Positions 465-12,449 of a DNA stretch of 15,823 nt are shown in pieces. The notes beneath the pieces were generated by a model, which had not been told where the DNA came from, ran no database searches, and was given only the letters and a program-made list of their open reading frames with translations. Origin of the DNA: Octopus sinensis (lineage: Eukaryota); NCBI RefSeq assembly GCF_006345805.1, contig NW_021825316.1:1-15823 (forward strand). Reading direction: 5' to 3'. The first letter of the stretch is position 1, and each line of letters begins with the position of its first letter. Position numbers and translations under genes: made by a program.

Positions 465-936
465 ACCCCGAAAGGATGAAAGGCAAAGTCGACCTCGGCG
501 GAATTTGAGCTCAGAACGTAACGGCAGACGAAATACCTATTTCTTTACTACCCACAAGGGGCTAAACACAGAGAGGACAAACAAGGACAAAGAAACGGAT
601 TAAGTCGATTATATCGATCCCAGTGCGTAACTGGTACTTATTTAATCGACCCCGAAAGGATGAAAGGCAAAGTCGACCTCAGAACGTAACGACAGACGAA
701 ATACCTATTTCTTTACTACTCATAAGGGGCTAAACACAGAAGGGACAGACAAGGACAAACAAACGGATTAAGTCGATTACATCGACCCCAGTGCGTTACT
801 GGTTCTTATTTAATCGACCCCGAAAGGATGAAAGGCAAAGTCGACCTCAGCAGAATTTGAACTCAGAACGTACCGGCAGACGAAATACGGCTAAGCATTT
901 CGCTCGATCTGCTAACGTTTCTGCCAGCTCGCCACC
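465..936 (-). mobile_element. Family B SINE array 1: head + 2 full bodies + partial third body (tRNA-like head, Meta-like central domain)
   Basis: Head at ~890-936 (rc ggtggcgagctggcagaaacgttagc). Bodies at 706-889 (184 bp), 538-705 (168 bp, 16-bp deletion) and a partial one at 465-537. Core gcctttcatcctttcggggtcgattaaataagtacc resembles the Meta/MESC SINE domain (from recall). B-box-like gagttcaaatt. Confidence 0.88.
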
Positions 937-2446: not shown

Positions 2447-2634
2447 GGCGTGGGCAAGGCTGTGTGGGTGGGTAAGAAGCTCACTTTTCAAGCATATGAT
2501 TCTGGGTTCAGTCCCACTATGCGGTACCTTGGACAAGTATCTTCTACGATGGTCCCCGGCCGAACAATGCCGAGTGAGCGAAACGGGTAAACGAAAACTA
2601 TGCGGAATCCCATCACACACACACACACACGCAT

Positions 2635-3499: not shown

Positions 3500-4062
3500 A
3501 AACATCATTTATCACTCAAAATTCACTCTCCATTACTCACCACTCACTATTCGTCATCCATCTTCCACCATCCTCTATCTTCTACCTCTCAGGATGCACG
3601 TCGCATCACTCGCCCTCAATCATTCATACCTCACCATCAATCATCAACCATCCACAATTTTCTATCAATCATTCATCATCAAACCTCTACTACTCACCTT
3701 CAGTCTTCCATCAACCACCATTCATCCCTCACCATCCCGCATCAATTATCAACCACCCACCACTCACCATCAACCATCAATCATCCACCACTTGGTATCC
3801 CTCATCCTTCATTCTTCAATCATTATCAGTCCTCCATAATCCCCTTCTGTCTTCCACCATCCACCATGCATCACTCACCATCCACTACTAATCATTAATC
3901 ACACACCGCTCACCATCAGTCATCGACCATCCACCATTTGCCATCTGTCATCCATCATTCATTATCAATCCTCTACTACCCTCCCCGATGTCTTCCTTTA
4001 TCAACCATTAACCACTCGCCATCAATTACCAGTCAGCTATCATTCGCCACTGTTCACTCACC
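3500..4062. repeat. Degenerate C/A/T-rich low-complexity tract (CCAT/TCA/CACCATC motifs)
   Basis: G-poor strand with recurring caccatc, tcatca and atcaacc words; produces the His/Ser/Pro ORF 3497..3898. Confidence 0.8.
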
Positions 4063-5748: not shown

Positions 5749-6146
5749 GGAGTGGCTGTGTGGTAAGTAGCTTGCTAACCAACCACATGGTTCCGGGTTC
5801 AGTCCCACTGCGTGGCATCCTGGGCAAGTGTCCTCTGCTATAGCCTCGGGTCGACCAATGCCTCGTGAGTGGATTTGGTAGACGGAAACTGAAAGAAGCC
5901 TGTCGTATATATGTATATATATATATATATATGCGTGTGTGCGTTTGTGTTTGTCTCCCTAGCATTGCTTGACAACCGATGCTGCTGTGTTTACGTACCC
6001 ATTACTTAGCGGTTCGGCAAAAGAGACCGATAGAATAAGTACTGGGCTTATAAAGAATAAGTCCCGGGGTCGATTTGCTCGACTAAAGGCGGTGCTCCAG
6101 CATGGCCGCAGTCAAATGACTGAAACAAGTAAAAGAGTAAAGAGAG
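5749..6146 (+). mobile_element. Family A tRNA-derived CORE-like SINE, near full length
   Basis: A-box-like tggctgtgtgg, B-box-like ggttcagtccc, CORE-like ccttgggcaagtgtc, internal (TA)n(TG)n, tail gactgaaacaagtaaaagagtaaagagag. Closely matches the copies at 6482, 10432 and 11932. Confidence 0.93.
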
Positions 6147-6481: not shown

Positions 6482-6880
6482 GGCGCAGGAGTGGCTGTGT
6501 GGTAAGTAGCATGCTTACCAACCACATGGCGTCGGGTTCAGTCCCACTGCGTGGCATCTTGGGCAAGTGTCTTCTACTATAGCCTATAGCCGACCAAAAC
6601 CTTGTGAGTGGATTTGGTAGACGGAAACTGAAAGAAGCCCGTCGTATAAATGCATATATATATATATATATGTGTGTGTTTATCCCCTTAGCATTGCTTG
6701 ACAACCGATGCTGGTGTGTTTATGTCCCCGTCACTTAGCGGTTCGGCAAAAGAGACCGATAGGATAAGTACTGGGATTACAAAGAATAAGTCCCGGGGTG
6801 GATTTGCTCGACTAAAGACGGTGCTCCAGCATGGCCGCAGTCAAATGACTGAAACAAGTAAAAGAGAGTAAAAGAGAGAG
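6482..6880 (+). mobile_element. Family A SINE, full length
   Basis: Starts ggcgcaggagtggctgtgtggtaag, has all family A modules, ends gtaaaagagagtaaaagagagag. Confidence 0.94.
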
Positions 6881-7341: not shown

Positions 7342-7758
7342 GGATCTTTTCGGTTTGAACGGCAGTTTTTTCTAGCGGTGTCATATAAATTGTCACCCAT
7401 AATTATGACCCTAGTATCGATCTATTGCATTTCAATCTGTTTTAGGGTTAGGGTTAAAGTTAGGGTTAGTTAGGTTTAGGGTTTGGGTTAGGGTTGGGGG
7501 TGGGGGAAGGGTATCTTTTTTCTTCAGAAATGTAAATAAACCCAATCTGTTTCTTAAGCGACGGACATATTCATACGGCACAGAATGTTTTCACCTCAAT
7601 AGACGTTATTGATTGGTTGAAATTGCAGAAATTGAAGAAAAAAAACAACAAACTTACAAACTATAGAATTTTCTCAATAAAGCCAAGAGAAAAAGTTTAA
7701 AAGTGTTTAGTTACGTGGAAATTATTTTAAAAAACTGCCGTTCAAACCGAAAAGATCC
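7342..7758. mobile_element. 417-bp MITE with perfect 30-bp terminal inverted repeats, inserted in (TA)n
   Basis: ggatcttttcggtttgaacggcagtttttt (7342-7371) is the exact reverse complement of aaaaaactgccgttcaaaccgaaaagatcc (7729-7758). TA/TATA on both sides; no coding capacity. Confidence 0.95.
7442..7511 (+). repeat. Degenerate telomere-like (TTAGGG)n and G-runs inside the MITE
   Basis: ttagggttagggttaaagttagggttagttaggtttagggtttgggttagggttgggggtgggggaaggg. Confidence 0.9.
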
Positions 7759-8047
7759 TATATAATATATATATATATATAGTTACAATGTCTTACAGAA
7801 TTTGACCTTCAAGCTTTGCACCAGCAGTCCATGAGGACGAAGATGCTGGTTTTCTTATTCTTTCCCGTTTTCTCGTTCCGTTTTTTGCTTCAACCTTCTT
7901 CGCGCTTTCTTATTCTGTTAGTTGTTTTCATCTCGTTTGATTCTCTCGTGTTTTTTTCTTTTTTTTGTCGTAGTCCAGAGTCCTGGTTTGTAAATGTATT
8001 TAACCTATGAACTAAGCTTGAAAAGATTGCTTAGAGACACACGTCAG

Positions 8048-8215
8048 AAAATGGGTTTTCTTTCTGATTCGGTCTACCAAGTCCGCTCACAATAATCTGG
8101 TCGGCTCGAGTCTATAAAAGAAAAGAAAAAAAAATGCCAAAAGGTGTACACCCTGCGGGACTGAACTCGGAACATTTGTGGATGGAAATGAAACTTCTTA
8201 CCACATAGCCACACC
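8048..8215 (-). mobile_element. Family A SINE, diverged 5' half
   Basis: rc reads ggtgtggctatgtggtaagaag...ttccgagttcagtcccgcag...tatagactcgagccgacc...tgtgagcggacttggtagacc. Confidence 0.78.
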
Positions 8216-8272
8216 AGTTTAGAATGCGGTATTCTAAAGTTCCTGTTCAGAGGTTATATTCTTGTGGTTGAA

Positions 8273-8864
8273 GGGTCGTGAGCTGGCAGAAACGTTAGCA
8301 CGCCGGACGAAATGCTTAGTGATATTTCATCTGTCTACGTTCTGAGTTCAAACTCCGCCGAAGTCGACTTTGCCTTTCATCCTTTCGGGGTCGATTAGAT
8401 AAGTACCAGTTACGCACTGGAGTCGATGTAATCGACTTAATCCATTTGTCTGTCCTTGTTTGTCCCCTCTGTGTTTAGCCCCTTGTGGGTAGAAATAGGT
8501 ATTTCGTCTGCCGCTATGTTCTGAGCTCAAATTCCGCCGAGGTCGATTTTGCCTTTCATCCTTTCGGGGTCGATTAATAAGTACCAGTTACGCACTAGGG
8601 TCGATGTAATCGACTTAATCCGTGTGTCTGTCCTTGTTGGTCCTCTCTGTGTTTAGCCCCTTGTGGGGAGTAAAGAAATAGGTATTTCGTCTGCCATTAC
8701 GTTCTGAGTTTAAATTCCGCTTAGGTCGACTTTGCCTTTCATCCTTTCGGGGTCGATTAAATAAGTACCAGTTACGCACTGGAGTCGAAGTAATCGACTT
8801 AATCCCTTTGTTTGTCCTTGTTTGTCCCTTCTATGTGTAGTCCCCTGTGTGCAATAAAAAAATA
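8273..8864 (+). mobile_element. Family B SINE array 2: head + 3 tandem bodies with an 18-bp TSD
   Basis: Head ~8273-8319; bodies start at ~8320, 8498 and 8681 (period 183-184). Flanked by tatattcttgtggttgaa (8255-8272) and tatattcttgttgttgaa (8865-8882), 1 mismatch. Confidence 0.92.
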
Positions 8865-9599
8865 TATATTCTTGTTGTTGAAACGTAAACAGAAATTAGT
8901 GAAGAAAAAAAAAAGAAGTTATGTAAATTTAAAATTGCCATTCGGTAAATGGAGCGAAAACTGGTAAGAAATCTTTGCTGTATTCGGGAGCACATCGTGA
9001 TAAAAATAGCGTTTTAATCTCGCTCAAATATGAATTAGGTTAGCAAAGATTATGAGCAATGGCATCCCTGACGACTAGAAAATAAAAGAAAGTAAGTGTG
9101 ACATTGAAGAAAATAGTCTTTGAAACATTATACTTCAATGGAACAGGAGAGTCACGGTAGTACTGTCATCATTTATAGGTTTGCCGGGTTGAAAGCAATT
9201 TGGAGGTGAACGCCTACTACCGAAACGATAATAACAACAACTACCACAACAACAACAATAACTGTAGCAATAATAACTACGACGATGACGCTGACAAGAA
9301 CAGCAAGATCTCAGGCAGAGAAGAAAATAAGGATGAACGTGTTAGGGCTTAGGTACCGGATTTTGGGTTTATTGGGGGGGGGGTCGGGTCTTATGACGTC
9401 AAACGGTAGATTATGTTAGGGGCCAGTGGAGAATTAGGAAGTTACACTCCTTTTTTTGTGGGTGGGGTATGCTTAGTAACATTTATTTCGATTCCATGTC
9501 AGCCCTTTCGAGATAGCCCCAAAAATAATTGTGTCACCTTTTCAGGACACACACACCACACACGTGTGCTGACTCACAGATGTATATGCGTGTGCTGTT

Positions 9600-9680: not shown

Positions 9681-9731
<51 letters not shown>
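9600..9731. repeat. (CT)n/(TA)n compound microsatellite
   Basis: Directly visible. Confidence 0.95.
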
Positions 9732-9732
<1 letters not shown>

Positions 9733-9871
9733 GTAGTTGCTTACAAACTACATGGTTCCGGGTTCGGTCTCACTGCGTAGCACCTTGGGCAAATATCTCC
9801 TACTTTTGCCTCGGGCCAACCAAAGCCTTGTGAGTGGATTGGTAGACGGAAAACGAAAGAAGCCCGTCGTA

Positions 9872-9915
<44 letters not shown>

Positions 9916-10115
9916 TGTGTTTGTTCCCCCAACATCCCTTGACAACCGATGCTGGTGTGTTTACGTCCCCGTAATTTAGCGGCTCGGCAAAAGTGTCCGA
10001 TAGAATAAGTACTAGGCTTACAAAGAATAAGTCCTGGGGTCCATGTGATCGACTAAAAGGCGGTGCTCCAGCATGGTCACAGTCAAATGACTGAAAAAGT
10101 AAAAGCGTAAAAGAG
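9732..10115 (+). mobile_element. Family A SINE, lacking the extreme 5' end (A box)
   Basis: Begins agtagttgcttac...catggttccgggttcggtctcactgcg, long internal (TA)n, family A tail. Confidence 0.9.
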
Positions 10116-10431: not shown

Positions 10432-10813
10432 CAGGAGTGGCTGTGTGGTAAGTAGGTTGCTTACCAACCACATGGTTCTGGGTTCAGTCCCACTGCGTGG
10501 CACCTTGGGCAAGTGTCTTCTGCTATAACCACGGGCCGACCAATGCCTTGTGAGTGGATTTGGTAGACGGAAACTGAAAGGAGCCCGTCGTATATATTTG
10601 TATATATATATGTTTGTGTGTCTGTGTTTGTCTCCCCAACATCGCTTGACAACCAATGTTGGTGTGTTTGCGTGCCCGTAACTTAGCGGTTCGGCAAAAG
10701 AGACGGATAAGATAAGTACTAGGCTTGCAAAGATTAAGTCCTGGGGTCGATTTTCTCGACTAAAGGCGTAGCTCCATCATGGCCGCAGTCAAATGACTGA
10801 AACAAATAAAAGA
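10432..10813 (+). mobile_element. Family A SINE, near full length
   Basis: caggagtggctgtgtggtaag head through gactgaaacaaataaaaga tail. Confidence 0.93.
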
Positions 10814-10924
10814 TTATATATCTGTGTGTGTGTGCGTGTATACATATATGTTTATATATAAATTTTACATAATTGTGTGTATATATAAATATATATATAT
10901 GTTGCAAGCAATAAAGATTGATAA

Positions 10925-11272: not shown

Positions 11273-11857
11273 CTATTTCTTTACTACCCACAAGAGAGGA
11301 CAAAGAAGGACAGACAAATGGATTAAGTTGATTATATCGACCCCAGTGCGTAACTGGTACTTATTTAATCGACCCCGGAAGGATGAAAGGCAAAGTCGAC
11401 CTCGGCGGAATTTGAACTCAGAACATAGCGGCAGACGAAATAGCTATTTCTTTACTACTCACAAGGAACTAAACACAGAGAGGACAAACAAGGACAGACA
11501 AATGGATTAAGTCGATTATATCGACCCCAGTGCGTAACTGGTACTTATTTAATCGACCCCGGAAGGATGAAAAGCAAAGTCGACCTCGGCGGAATTTGAA
11601 CTCAGAACGTAGCGGCAGTCGAAATACCTATTTCTTTACTACCCACAAGGAGTAAACACAGAGGGGACAAACAAGGACAGACAAATGTATTAAGTCGAAT
11701 ATATCGACCCCAGTGCATAACTGGTACTTATTTAATCGACCCCGAAAAGATGAAAGGCAAAGTCGACCTCGCGGGATTTGAACTCAGAACGTAGCGGTAG
11801 ACAAAATACTGTTAAGCATTTCACCCAGCATGCTAATATTTCTGCCAGATCACCACC
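11273..11857 (-). mobile_element. Family B SINE array 3: head + 3 tandem bodies with a degenerate ~15-bp TSD
   Basis: Bodies at 11629-11811, 11445-11628 (184 bp) and 11274-11444 (171 bp); head ~11812-11857. Flanks aaagtttaaagatac (11258-11272) and aaggtgtaaagatac (11861-11875), 2 mismatches. Confidence 0.9.
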
Positions 11858-11931
11858 TTAAAGGTGTAAAGATACTGAAGAGTCAGTATACACCACGTGG
11901 CAATATTATGTATATATATATATGTATATAC

Positions 11932-12315
11932 GAGTGGCTGTGTGGTAAGTAGCTTGCTTACCAACCACATGGTTCCGAGTTCAGTCCCACTGCATGATAC
12001 CTTGGGCAAGTGTCTTCTACTATATAGCCTCGGGCCGACCAAAGACTTGTGAGTGGATTTGCTAGAGGGAAACTGAAAGAAGCCCGTCGTATATATATGT
12101 GTGTGTATGTGTGTGTGTGTGTTTGTGTGTCTGTGTTTGTTCCCCCAACATCGCTTGACAACCGATGCTGGTGTGTTTACGTCCCCGTAACCCAGCGGTT
12201 CGCCAAAAGGGATCGATAGAATAAGTACTAGGCCTACAAAGAATAAGTCGATTTGCTCGACTAAAGGCGGTGCTCCAGCATGGCCGCAATTAAATGACTG
12301 AAACAAGTAAAAGAG
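11932..12315 (+). mobile_element. Family A SINE, near full length
   Basis: gagtggctgtgtggtaag head, internal (TA)(TG)n, small deletion at gaataagtc^gatttgc, family A tail. Confidence 0.93.
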
Positions 12316-12449
12316 AATAAGTACCAAGCTATAAAAACAAATCAAAAGGCACTGGGGTCGATTGGTTCGTCAAAATATTCTTCAATGCGGTGCCCCAGCA
12401 TGGGCGCAACCTAATGGCTGAAACAAGTAACAGGTAAAAGATTAAAAAA
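12316..12449 (+). mobile_element. Diverged second SINE 3' tail related to family A
   Basis: aataagtacc...cactggggtcgattgg...gcggtgccccagcatgggcgcaacctaatggctgaaacaagtaa parallels the family A 3' module. Confidence 0.75.

What the first reader, a model, noticed from the sequence alone, without database searches (positions are those of the whole stretch)
8255..8882. Concatemeric SINE: one head plus three head-less 184-bp bodies inserted as a single event inside one TSD
Seen: the array is head + 3 bodies, and the whole trimer is bracketed by one 18-bp direct repeat (8255-8272 and 8865-8882, 1 mismatch). Two other loci (465-936 and 11273-11857, both minus strand) have the same architecture. Every internal junction reads tail-GAAATA|GGTATTTCG (one GC variant at 11443-11444). 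Known: TSDs of this length mark target-primed reverse transcription, and SINEs normally insert as monomers. Inference: base-precise junctions at independent loci are hard to explain by post-insertion slippage. They point to a retroposon mobilised as multimers, by repeated RT template jumping, rolling-circle copying of a circular ~184-nt RNA (retrozyme-like but with no recognisable hammerhead), or a multimeric master copy.
Basis: partly seen in the sequence, partly recalled or inferred. Interest (0 to 1): 0.8.

Follow-up and report, generated by a model that had tools for sequence, protein, structure and literature searches.

The report
SINE copied as mosaic headless concatemers
Nearly half the copies of this abundant short jumping element are one full copy followed by 1–9 head-less copies joined at the same base, often from different subfamilies, likely because the reverse transcriptase hops from one element RNA to the next while inserting, which would be a direct route from jumping elements to satellite DNA.

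Summary
The focal insertion is a 47-bp head plus three bodies (177, 183, 184 bp) inside one 18-bp target-site duplication (TSD). In 1.6 Mb sampled without a query, 45 of 100 family loci are arrays. Among 76 head-bearing loci unit number runs 1–8 and fits a geometric series (p≈0.49). 79 of 88 junctions sit at position 48 and 9 at position 15, and the upstream tail type predicts which. Units do not cluster by position. Short arrays mostly mix unrelated templates, including all three focal units and TSD-bounded chimeras ending in an older subfamily under a young head. That disfavours a fixed multimeric master, a single circle and pure slippage. Best reading (inferred, 0.55): RNAs transcribed from arrays end just past a junction, so their 3' end repeats an internal site, and a LINE reverse transcriptase transfers its cDNA onto such ends. 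The base-precise junction is then inherited, not remade. Local re-copying adds units to long arrays. Growth in place by insertion into resident copies is not excluded (0.17). An L1-like LINE shares the 3' end. No ribozyme was found, and there is no RNA-level evidence.

The parts
8255..8272 (+). 5' copy of the target-site duplication (18 bp)
   Evidence: sequence; TSD scan
8274..8320 (+). SINE head, element positions 1-47, with an A-box-like motif at 8284-8294 (box label recalled); forms the 5' arm and loop of a hairpin whose 3' arm starts at the junction site
   Evidence: folds of related copies
8321..8497 (+). unit 1 (177 bp), positions 48-231, B-box-like motif at 8346-8356 (label recalled), X-type tail with a 5-bp deletion
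8498..8680 (+). unit 2 (183 bp), head-less, X-type tail; 9% from unit 1 and 14% from unit 3
8681..8864 (+). unit 3 (184 bp), head-less, Y-type tail (GCAATAAA), the most diverged of the three; its last ~35 nt resemble the 3' end of an L1-like LINE
8865..8882 (+). 3' copy of the TSD, starting directly after the tail
465..936 (-). second locus: head + 2 units (second with a 16-bp deletion) + 3'-cut third unit; no TSD found
11274..11857 (-). third locus: head + 3 X-type units; TSD at 11875-11861 and 11272-11258 begins (G)GTAT

Best explanation
These are arrays of one full SINE plus head-less units inside one target-site duplication, likely written in a single insertion by a LINE reverse transcriptase that repeatedly moves its cDNA from the head region of one SINE RNA onto the 3' end of another. 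Shown: fixed junctions at positions 48 and 15, geometric unit number, units from unrelated templates, and the tail type predicting both the junction and the first bases of the TSD. Inferred steps: (1) Pol III reads from the only complete head through the first tail and often stops a few bases past a junction, so the RNA ends ...GAAAUA-GGUAUU(U), or -AGAAAC.. for the Y tail, sometimes longer; this 3' end repeats the internal site, like the R region of an LTR element. (2) The RT primes on target DNA through these terminal bases. (3) Near position 48-125 the cDNA anneals to the redundant 3' end of another RNA, or of the same one, and copying goes on, about every second time; otherwise it runs to the head and the insertion closes. 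The junction is therefore inherited from the acceptor RNA, and each new array is a source of further acceptors. (4) Re-copying of the same template, or unequal exchange in DNA afterwards, lengthens and homogenises long arrays.
For: Unit numbers 41/19/7/3/3/1/0/2 in 76 loci fit a geometric series with p=0.49 (chi-square p=0.70). No position effect: 82 of 340 observed, 82 expected. In arrays of up to 3 units only 36 of 172 units have their nearest neighbour in their own array, and 58 of 100 adjacent pairs share no private variant. The focal three units are 9-14% apart, like other loci. X-type tails are followed by GGT in 29 of 59 loci, Y-type in 0 of 20 (p=2e-5), so the RNA carried the junction bases. 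Upstream of position-48 junctions the tail is X-type (TG) in 244 of 305 and Y-type (CA) in 4; upstream of position-15 junctions Y-type in 42 of 63. TSD-bounded arrays mix both junctions (L253, L267, L268) or end in the older Z tail. In 16 X->Z/W arrays with an old last unit the head is as young as in X/Y loci (0.068 vs 0.062) and half as diverged as in age-matched Z/W monomers (0.147; p=0.0004). Z/W last units carry mostly private variants (72 variants, 48 distinct, 23 arrays). The X-to-Z switch lies between 48 and 125: 18 of 39 last units are Z-type already at 61-64, 16 X-type, 5 unclear, and none has the TA form at 125/128 that 23 of 39 penultimate units carry. Z and W tails also join at 15 and about 50. 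Template jumping to concatemers is shown in vitro for L1 ORF2p (PMC10830420, passages). TATTT ends 42-50% of Pol III transcripts in mammalian tests (PMC8466645, passages).
Against: No RNA was seen: RNA ends, Pol III transcription and the transfer are inferred from DNA. TSDs of arrays are more decayed than those of monomers (perfect 12/12: X/Y monomers 21 of 37, X/Y arrays 18 of 54, X->Z arrays 9 of 43, Z monomers 6 of 25). That fits growth in place better, although unselected arrays and monomers differ little (5/120 vs 11/336) and TSD decay in X->Z arrays does not track the age of the last unit (rho 0.05). Older subfamilies sit last (Y-ended arrays: last 0.056 vs first 0.036, p=0.047), which needs aged copies to be transcribed. 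7 of 39 X->Z arrays start Z-type, against 1 of 52 X/Y arrays. Long arrays show patchwork sharing typical of DNA-level exchange (L217, C15 block 44835). The head and body contain further T3 runs, so the terminator role is uncertain. Many long and chimeric arrays were query-selected.
Confidence: 0.55

Rival explanations
1. Growth in place: a new SINE RNA primes at the GGTATTT (or AGAAAC) site of a resident genomic copy, and the cDNA joins the resident head by homology, often replacing it, so the array gains a unit under the old TSD. Same RNA redundancy and same RT, but the donor is chromosomal DNA.
For: Older subfamily last; private variants in last units; more decayed TSDs in arrays; 7 of 39 X->Z arrays start Z-type; three visible nested insertions (L196, L198, C26 block 187493); target sites read RGTAT.
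Against: Heads are young even when the last unit is old, most clearly next to the junction (0.064 vs 0.178). First and last unit mostly differ at 48-64, where an internal TSD should be. Z/W and older copies are 170 of 270 loci yet end a minority of arrays. Seamless arrays far outnumber nested ones.
Confidence: 0.17
2. Post-insertion DNA duplication (slippage or unequal exchange) is the main cause; retroposition only delivers monomers or a founder dimer.
For: Within-array pairs share 1.52 private variants vs 0.08 between arrays; 94 of 168 units of long arrays have their nearest neighbour in their own array; higher-order and patchwork patterns; this is the route proposed for reptile SINE satellites (PMC10702118, part read).
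Against: It cannot give unrelated units, X->Z chimeras or mixed junction classes within one TSD. The focal trimer has 16 singleton variants and 1 shared. Arrays with shared variants do not have older TSDs (3/177 vs 15/292). It is real as a secondary process.
Confidence: 0.1
3. Whole multimer RNAs from many array sources are copied as they are; leaky Pol III termination at each junction gives the geometric series, and no transfer occurs at insertion.
For: p≈0.49 matches the 42-50% reported for TATTT; it explains GGT-starting TSDs and the fixed junction; many position-15 units share a variant their own heads lack.
Against: It can only shorten arrays. It does not explain how many independent chimeras with private Z/W units arose, and no sibling arrays were seen among 188 loci (weak if sources are many). 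It probably contributes within the best explanation.
Confidence: 0.1
4. A circular 184-nt (and 217-nt) RNA is copied by rolling, retrozyme-like, with a final switch to a head-bearing RNA.
For: Some long arrays are nearly uniform (L003, 9 units); both junctions lie in or beside predicted hairpin loops; one TSD-bounded head-less dimer.
Against: No ribozyme match; most short arrays are mosaics; nearly all arrays begin with a head, and 5' ends at 49-51 are 3 of 271; monomer TSDs start with junction bases, which a linear redundant RNA explains directly.
Confidence: 0.05

Closest known systems
SINE-derived satellites (sSat) of squamates, PMC10702118 (abstract, parts 1 and 4 of 6 of the main section, keyword passages)
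   Same: Tandems of a SINE sub-region with leading and trailing units; the snake sSat3 unit keeps box B and lacks the 5' head; longer loci are more uniform.
   Different: Explained there by unequal recombination and concerted evolution; the word TSD does not occur in its text. Here about 45% of all family loci are arrays, most are short, TSD-bounded and mosaic.
U6/L1 and related template-switch chimeras, PMC4476161 (passages); template jumping by L1 ORF2p, PMC10830420 (passages)
   Same: A full-length Pol III RNA copy 5' of a 5'-truncated copy inside one TSD; RT moves between RNAs; triple chimeras are known.
   Different: Those are rare, join different RNAs at variable points and do not iterate. 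Here the join is fixed, iterates up to about ten times and appears to propagate itself.
Non-LTR retrozymes, PMC7229834 and bioRxiv 10.64898/2026.07.22.740005 (passages)
   Same: Dispersed monomers to multimers of a small unit, non-autonomous, with long TSDs when present.
   Different: They carry a type I hammerhead in each unit, make circular RNA and relate to Penelope elements. Here: no hammerhead, a unique head, an L1-like tail and mosaic units.
Tandem Dip/B1/B2 SINE multimers, PMC8466645 (passages)
   Same: About half of Dip copies lie in head-to-tail multimers of up to eight.
   Different: Those units are full-length SINEs and their origin is left open; here downstream units are head-less at one base.
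Cassandra TRIM tandem arrays, PMC7215508 (passages)
   Same: Concatemers of a small non-autonomous retroelement, with template switching and later unequal exchange proposed.
   Different: An LTR element with true terminal repeats; here a non-LTR SINE with a few bases of redundancy.

Membership tests
SINE (SINEBase definition, PMC3531059 section 4) | short non-coding repeat, at least 100 copies | tested here: met
   231-bp monomer; 270 related loci in 1.6 Mb
SINE | interspersed, non-tandem | tested here: inconclusive
   loci are dispersed, but 45 of 100 X/Y loci are short tandems
SINE | at least 60% identity to a tRNA, 5S or 7SL RNA over 60 nt | tested here: inconclusive
   no ARAGORN or Rfam call; 54-62% gapped identity, z 1.1-1.9, to the only two isotypes held, Arg and Phe; A/B-box-like motifs by recall
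SINE | 3' end shared with a partner LINE | tested here: met
   last ~35 nt align with the 3' end of a LINE carrying RVT_1 and zf-RVT, both ending AATAAAGAAA(T/C)A; that this family is the actual driver is not shown
SINE | variable TSDs from target-primed reverse transcription | tested here: met
   58 of 93, mean 15 bp, null 3 of 300
SINE | Pol III transcription from an internal promoter | not testable with these tools
   only contigs were available
Non-LTR retrozyme | type I hammerhead in each unit | tested here: not met
   Rfam scans; core motif occurs once in the window, outside the arrays, at chance level
Non-LTR retrozyme | circular RNA | not testable with these tools
   no raw RNA reads
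Complex (fixed dimeric/trimeric) SINE | fixed unit number with position-specific variants | tested here: not met
   n = 1-10; no index concordance
SINE-derived satellite (sSat) | tandem units shorter than the parent SINE | tested here: met
   184- and 217-bp units of a 231-bp element
SINE-derived satellite (sSat) | at least four middle monomers, uniform units | tested here: not met
   focal locus has 3 unrelated units; 3 of 76 unselected loci have 6 or more units
MetaSINE | Meta central domain | tested here: not met
   no resemblance by eye to the BivaMeta alignment in part 1 of 4 of the supplement, and no hit of four body motifs in it; not a formal alignment
Named octopus SINE families (OK, OR1, OR2) or Repbase/Dfam entries | sequence identity to the deposited consensus | not testable with these tools
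   libraries not held; SINEBase supplements unavailable; genome paper not held

The most novel reading that the evidence does not exclude
A SINE family has acquired a self-perpetuating terminal redundancy: its RNAs end in a copy of an internal site, so the partner LINE reverse transcriptase performs a strand transfer about every second round and writes tens of thousands of mosaic concatemers. This would be a naturally programmed, iterated template jump in an animal genome that recombines subfamilies at each insertion and seeds satellites directly by retroposition.
Probability: 0.45. Interest if true: 0.78.

Novelty: new variant of a known kind. Interest (0 to 1): 0.62.

Why it matters
SINEs are taken to insert as monomers or fixed dimers, and SINE-derived satellites are ascribed to later DNA recombination. 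Here almost half of a family's loci (order 10^4-10^5 arrays, extrapolated from 45 in 1.6 Mb, with 0-14 per 200-kb block) are TSD-bounded concatemers whose units come from different templates. If they form at insertion, they are a very large in vivo record of RT template jumping, whose rate (about 0.5 per round) and sequence rule (a few bases of 3' overlap) can be read from the genome. They would also explain module swapping between SINE subfamilies and give a route from retroposon to satellite. They matter for annotation too: pipelines that strip tandem repeats from TE libraries (PMC10294476, passage) would hide them.

Tried and rejected
RNA evidence: no RNA holder listed; the four runs laid are contigs only and say nothing on RNA ends or circles. 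Rfam and ARAGORN gave nothing on the element; tRNA origin is untested beyond two isotypes. A BLAST search for tail-only hits found no LINE; the profile search did. The RVT_1 family search of G000 was not used further. Cleavage of the RNA at position 48 (tRNA-half model, with end-to-end jumping or ligation) was considered because the site borders a predicted hairpin loop, but 5' ends at 49-51 are only 3 of 271 and at 15-16 only 5 of 271, so it is not favoured. An HDV-like ribozyme starting at the junction was considered by eye and found no support in Rfam. Arrays ending in partial units mostly lack TSDs and were not used as evidence for internal priming. The TSD as a clock is noisy. Three look-ups in earlier scan findings returned nothing. 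Rows dropped: the 76-locus count leaves out 3 loci (one nested, two with unclear ends), and unit numbers of 4 loci split by internal deletions were corrected by hand. Supplements not seen (SINEBase, parts 2-4 of the MetaSINE PDF apart from the keyword search, sSat figures) may bear on family naming.

Full report
Observation. The window is contig C1787 of G000, a 2.72-Gb assembly. At 8255-8882 an 18-bp direct repeat with one mismatch brackets a 47-bp head and three bodies of 177, 183 and 184 bp. Positions below count from the first G of the head. The junction base is 48; BLAST tables show 49 because the reference copy has a change at 48. Locus 11274-11857 (-) is a second TSD-bounded trimer. Locus 465-936 (-) has a cut third unit and no TSD.

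Data. Eight 200-kb blocks were taken at arbitrary places on eight chromosome-scale contigs (unselected but not random). The blocks hold 270 related loci. 100 have the X/Y tail of the focal element; the rest have other tails (Z, W) or are older. 45 of the 100 are arrays, 0-14 per block.

Anatomy. Of 88 unselected junctions, 79 join tail GAAATA to position 48 (GGTATTTCG) and 9 to position 15 (AGAAACG). Among 76 head-bearing loci the unit numbers are 41, 19, 7, 3, 3, 1, 0, 2 for n = 1-8, a geometric series with p = 0.49 (chi-square p = 0.70); selected loci reach 10. TSDs of about 15 bp were called in 26 of 38 unselected monomers, 9 of 16 unselected arrays and 22 of 36 selected arrays, against 3 of 300 mismatched pairs. 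The TSD starts right after GAAATA, and its first bases follow the tail type: GGT after 29 of 59 X tails and 0 of 20 Y tails. The same link holds inside arrays: X tails precede position-48 junctions (244 of 305), Y tails precede position-15 junctions (42 of 63). I infer that the RNA itself carried the first bases of the junction. Predicted folds put position 48 at the edge of a strong hairpin loop; position 15 is in a loop in one of five folds shown and paired or variable in the others. tRNA origin is likely from box-like motifs (recalled) but was not shown.

Where units come from. There is no position effect: the nearest unit in another array has the same index 82 of 340 times, expected 82. 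A marked sub-lineage (71G, 171A, 175A) appears in monomers, first and internal units; its linkage is 9 of 29 within a unit and 1 of 21 across a junction (p = 0.03, units not independent). All pairs of diagnostic sites show four gametes in 180 first units, so subfamilies recombine freely. In arrays of up to three units 58 of 100 adjacent pairs share no private variant and 18 share two or more; in longer arrays 43 and 55 of 129; random pairs share two or more in 0.3%. The focal units are 9-14% apart, no closer than to other loci, and the last has a Y tail. So short arrays are mostly mosaics, while long arrays contain many local copies, some with patchwork or period-2/4 patterns.

Chimeras. TSD-bounded arrays combine both junction classes (L253, L267, L268) or end in a unit with the older Z tail (12 TSD calls in the 29 loci, two doubtful). 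Z/W last units are more diverged than first units and carry mostly private changes, so they were captured independently. Their heads are young: 0.068 in 16 arrays with an old last unit, 0.062 in 86 X/Y loci and 0.147 in 23 age-matched Z/W monomers. The switch from Z to X sequence lies between 48 and 125, about half of the cases at 48-60. Z tails join position 15 in five loci and about 51 in one, a W tail about 50 in one, and four position-48 junctions carry an extra tail repeat.

Partner. A profile of the tail found a LINE at G000:C2:196,063,170-196,065,931 (-) with RVT_1 (E 2e-31) and zf-RVT. Its closest solved relative is L1 ORF2p (E 5e-35; R2 3e-20), and its database relatives carry endonuclease, RT and zf-RVT domains. 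The label Tx1-like is recalled, not tested. Its last 35 nt align with the SINE tail. This family has at least 40 copies at 93-99%, and in 9 of 10 loci the tail is followed by (TATC)n, whereas SINE targets read RGTAT. It may therefore be a relative of the driver rather than the driver.

Mechanism. One model covers these facts. RNAs made from arrays end shortly past a junction and so repeat an internal site at their 3' end. The RT primes on target DNA with those bases, and near position 48-125 the cDNA transfers to another such end about half the time. The junction is inherited from the acceptor and the units come from a pool. TATTT, present at each position-48 junction, ends 42-50% of Pol III transcripts in mammalian assays (PMC8466645, passages); it is untested here, and the head and body have other T3 runs. 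L1 RT makes concatemers by template jumping in vitro (PMC10830420, passages), and LINE-made chimeras inside one TSD are known (PMC4476161, passages). All RNA steps are inferred.

Against. Array TSDs are more often imperfect than monomer TSDs (perfect: 21 of 37 X/Y monomers, 18 of 54 X/Y arrays, 9 of 43 X->Z arrays, 6 of 25 Z monomers), though the unselected sets differ little. Older subfamilies sit last. 7 of 39 X->Z arrays start with Z-type bases, and three nested insertions with a second head exist. Growth in place with head replacement would fit these points and cannot be excluded from one genome. Local copies could be RNA re-copying or DNA exchange; arrays with shared variants have few TSD mismatches (3/177 vs 15/292, p = 0.08), a weak hint for re-copying.

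Literature. Ten searches found no description of this architecture or family in the held library. The closest are squamate SINE satellites (PMC10702118), retrozymes (PMC7229834; bioRxiv 10.64898/2026.07.22.740005), full-length Dip multimers and Cassandra arrays (PMC7215508). PMC4758252, PMC4824008, PMC5786205, PMC13295347, PMC9795677 and PMC10294476 were seen as passages and gave no match to the body.

Verdict. A real, genome-wide feature and a new variant of known kinds (SINE, RT template switching, SINE-derived tandems). Interest 0.62.

Noticed in passing
window 2471-2599, 5749-6137, 6488-6866, 9727-10107, 10434-10814, 11931-12323; a related piece near 8150-8215: A second dispersed repeat family with five or six copies in the window (families D12, D18, D20), SINE-like by eye; one piece lies just upstream of the focal insertion.
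   Followed up: no
window 7442-7499: About ten degenerate TTAGGG repeats, an interstitial telomere-like tract.
   Followed up: no
window 3697-3960: A 146-bp unit in 1.8 copies within CAT/CAC-rich sequence.
   Followed up: no
window 8044-8296: A contig of run X17 (organism D) runs from the flank into the head with 13 differences in 250 bases, so the focal insertion is likely shared with another organism code; unit number there cannot be read.
   Followed up: partly
L157 3170-5931 (-); L271-L280: An L1-like LINE family with at least 40 copies at 93-99% whose 3' end is followed by (TATC)n in 9 of 10 loci: a likely microsatellite-targeting LINE.
   Followed up: partly
L165 7770-8963 (+): Two further LINE-like 3' ends with a related tail (GCCCTTGTGGC.AATAAAA), 1.1 kb apart and followed by (ATT)n; an array of this SINE starts about 100 bp after the second.
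   Followed up: partly
element 5' ends, many loci: Most TSD-bounded copies have AA between the 5' TSD copy and GGCGGCG (40 of 58), either the true RNA start or untemplated bases.
   Followed up: no
L024, L196, L197, L223, L241, L256: Full SINE copies often start 8-20 bp after a Z tail of another copy, i.e. full-length head-to-tail neighbours, suggesting AT-rich tail ends are also preferred targets.
   Followed up: no
X, Z and W tails: All three tails hold a short hairpin with the loop CTTGT (seen by eye), a candidate recognition signal for one RT family.
   Followed up: no
G000:C1:100.0-100.2 Mb versus C5:16.0-16.2 Mb and C2:196.0-196.2 Mb: Strong regional differences: 0 X/Y loci in the C1 block, 28 and 21 in the others, with arrays concentrated in the same blocks.
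   Followed up: no
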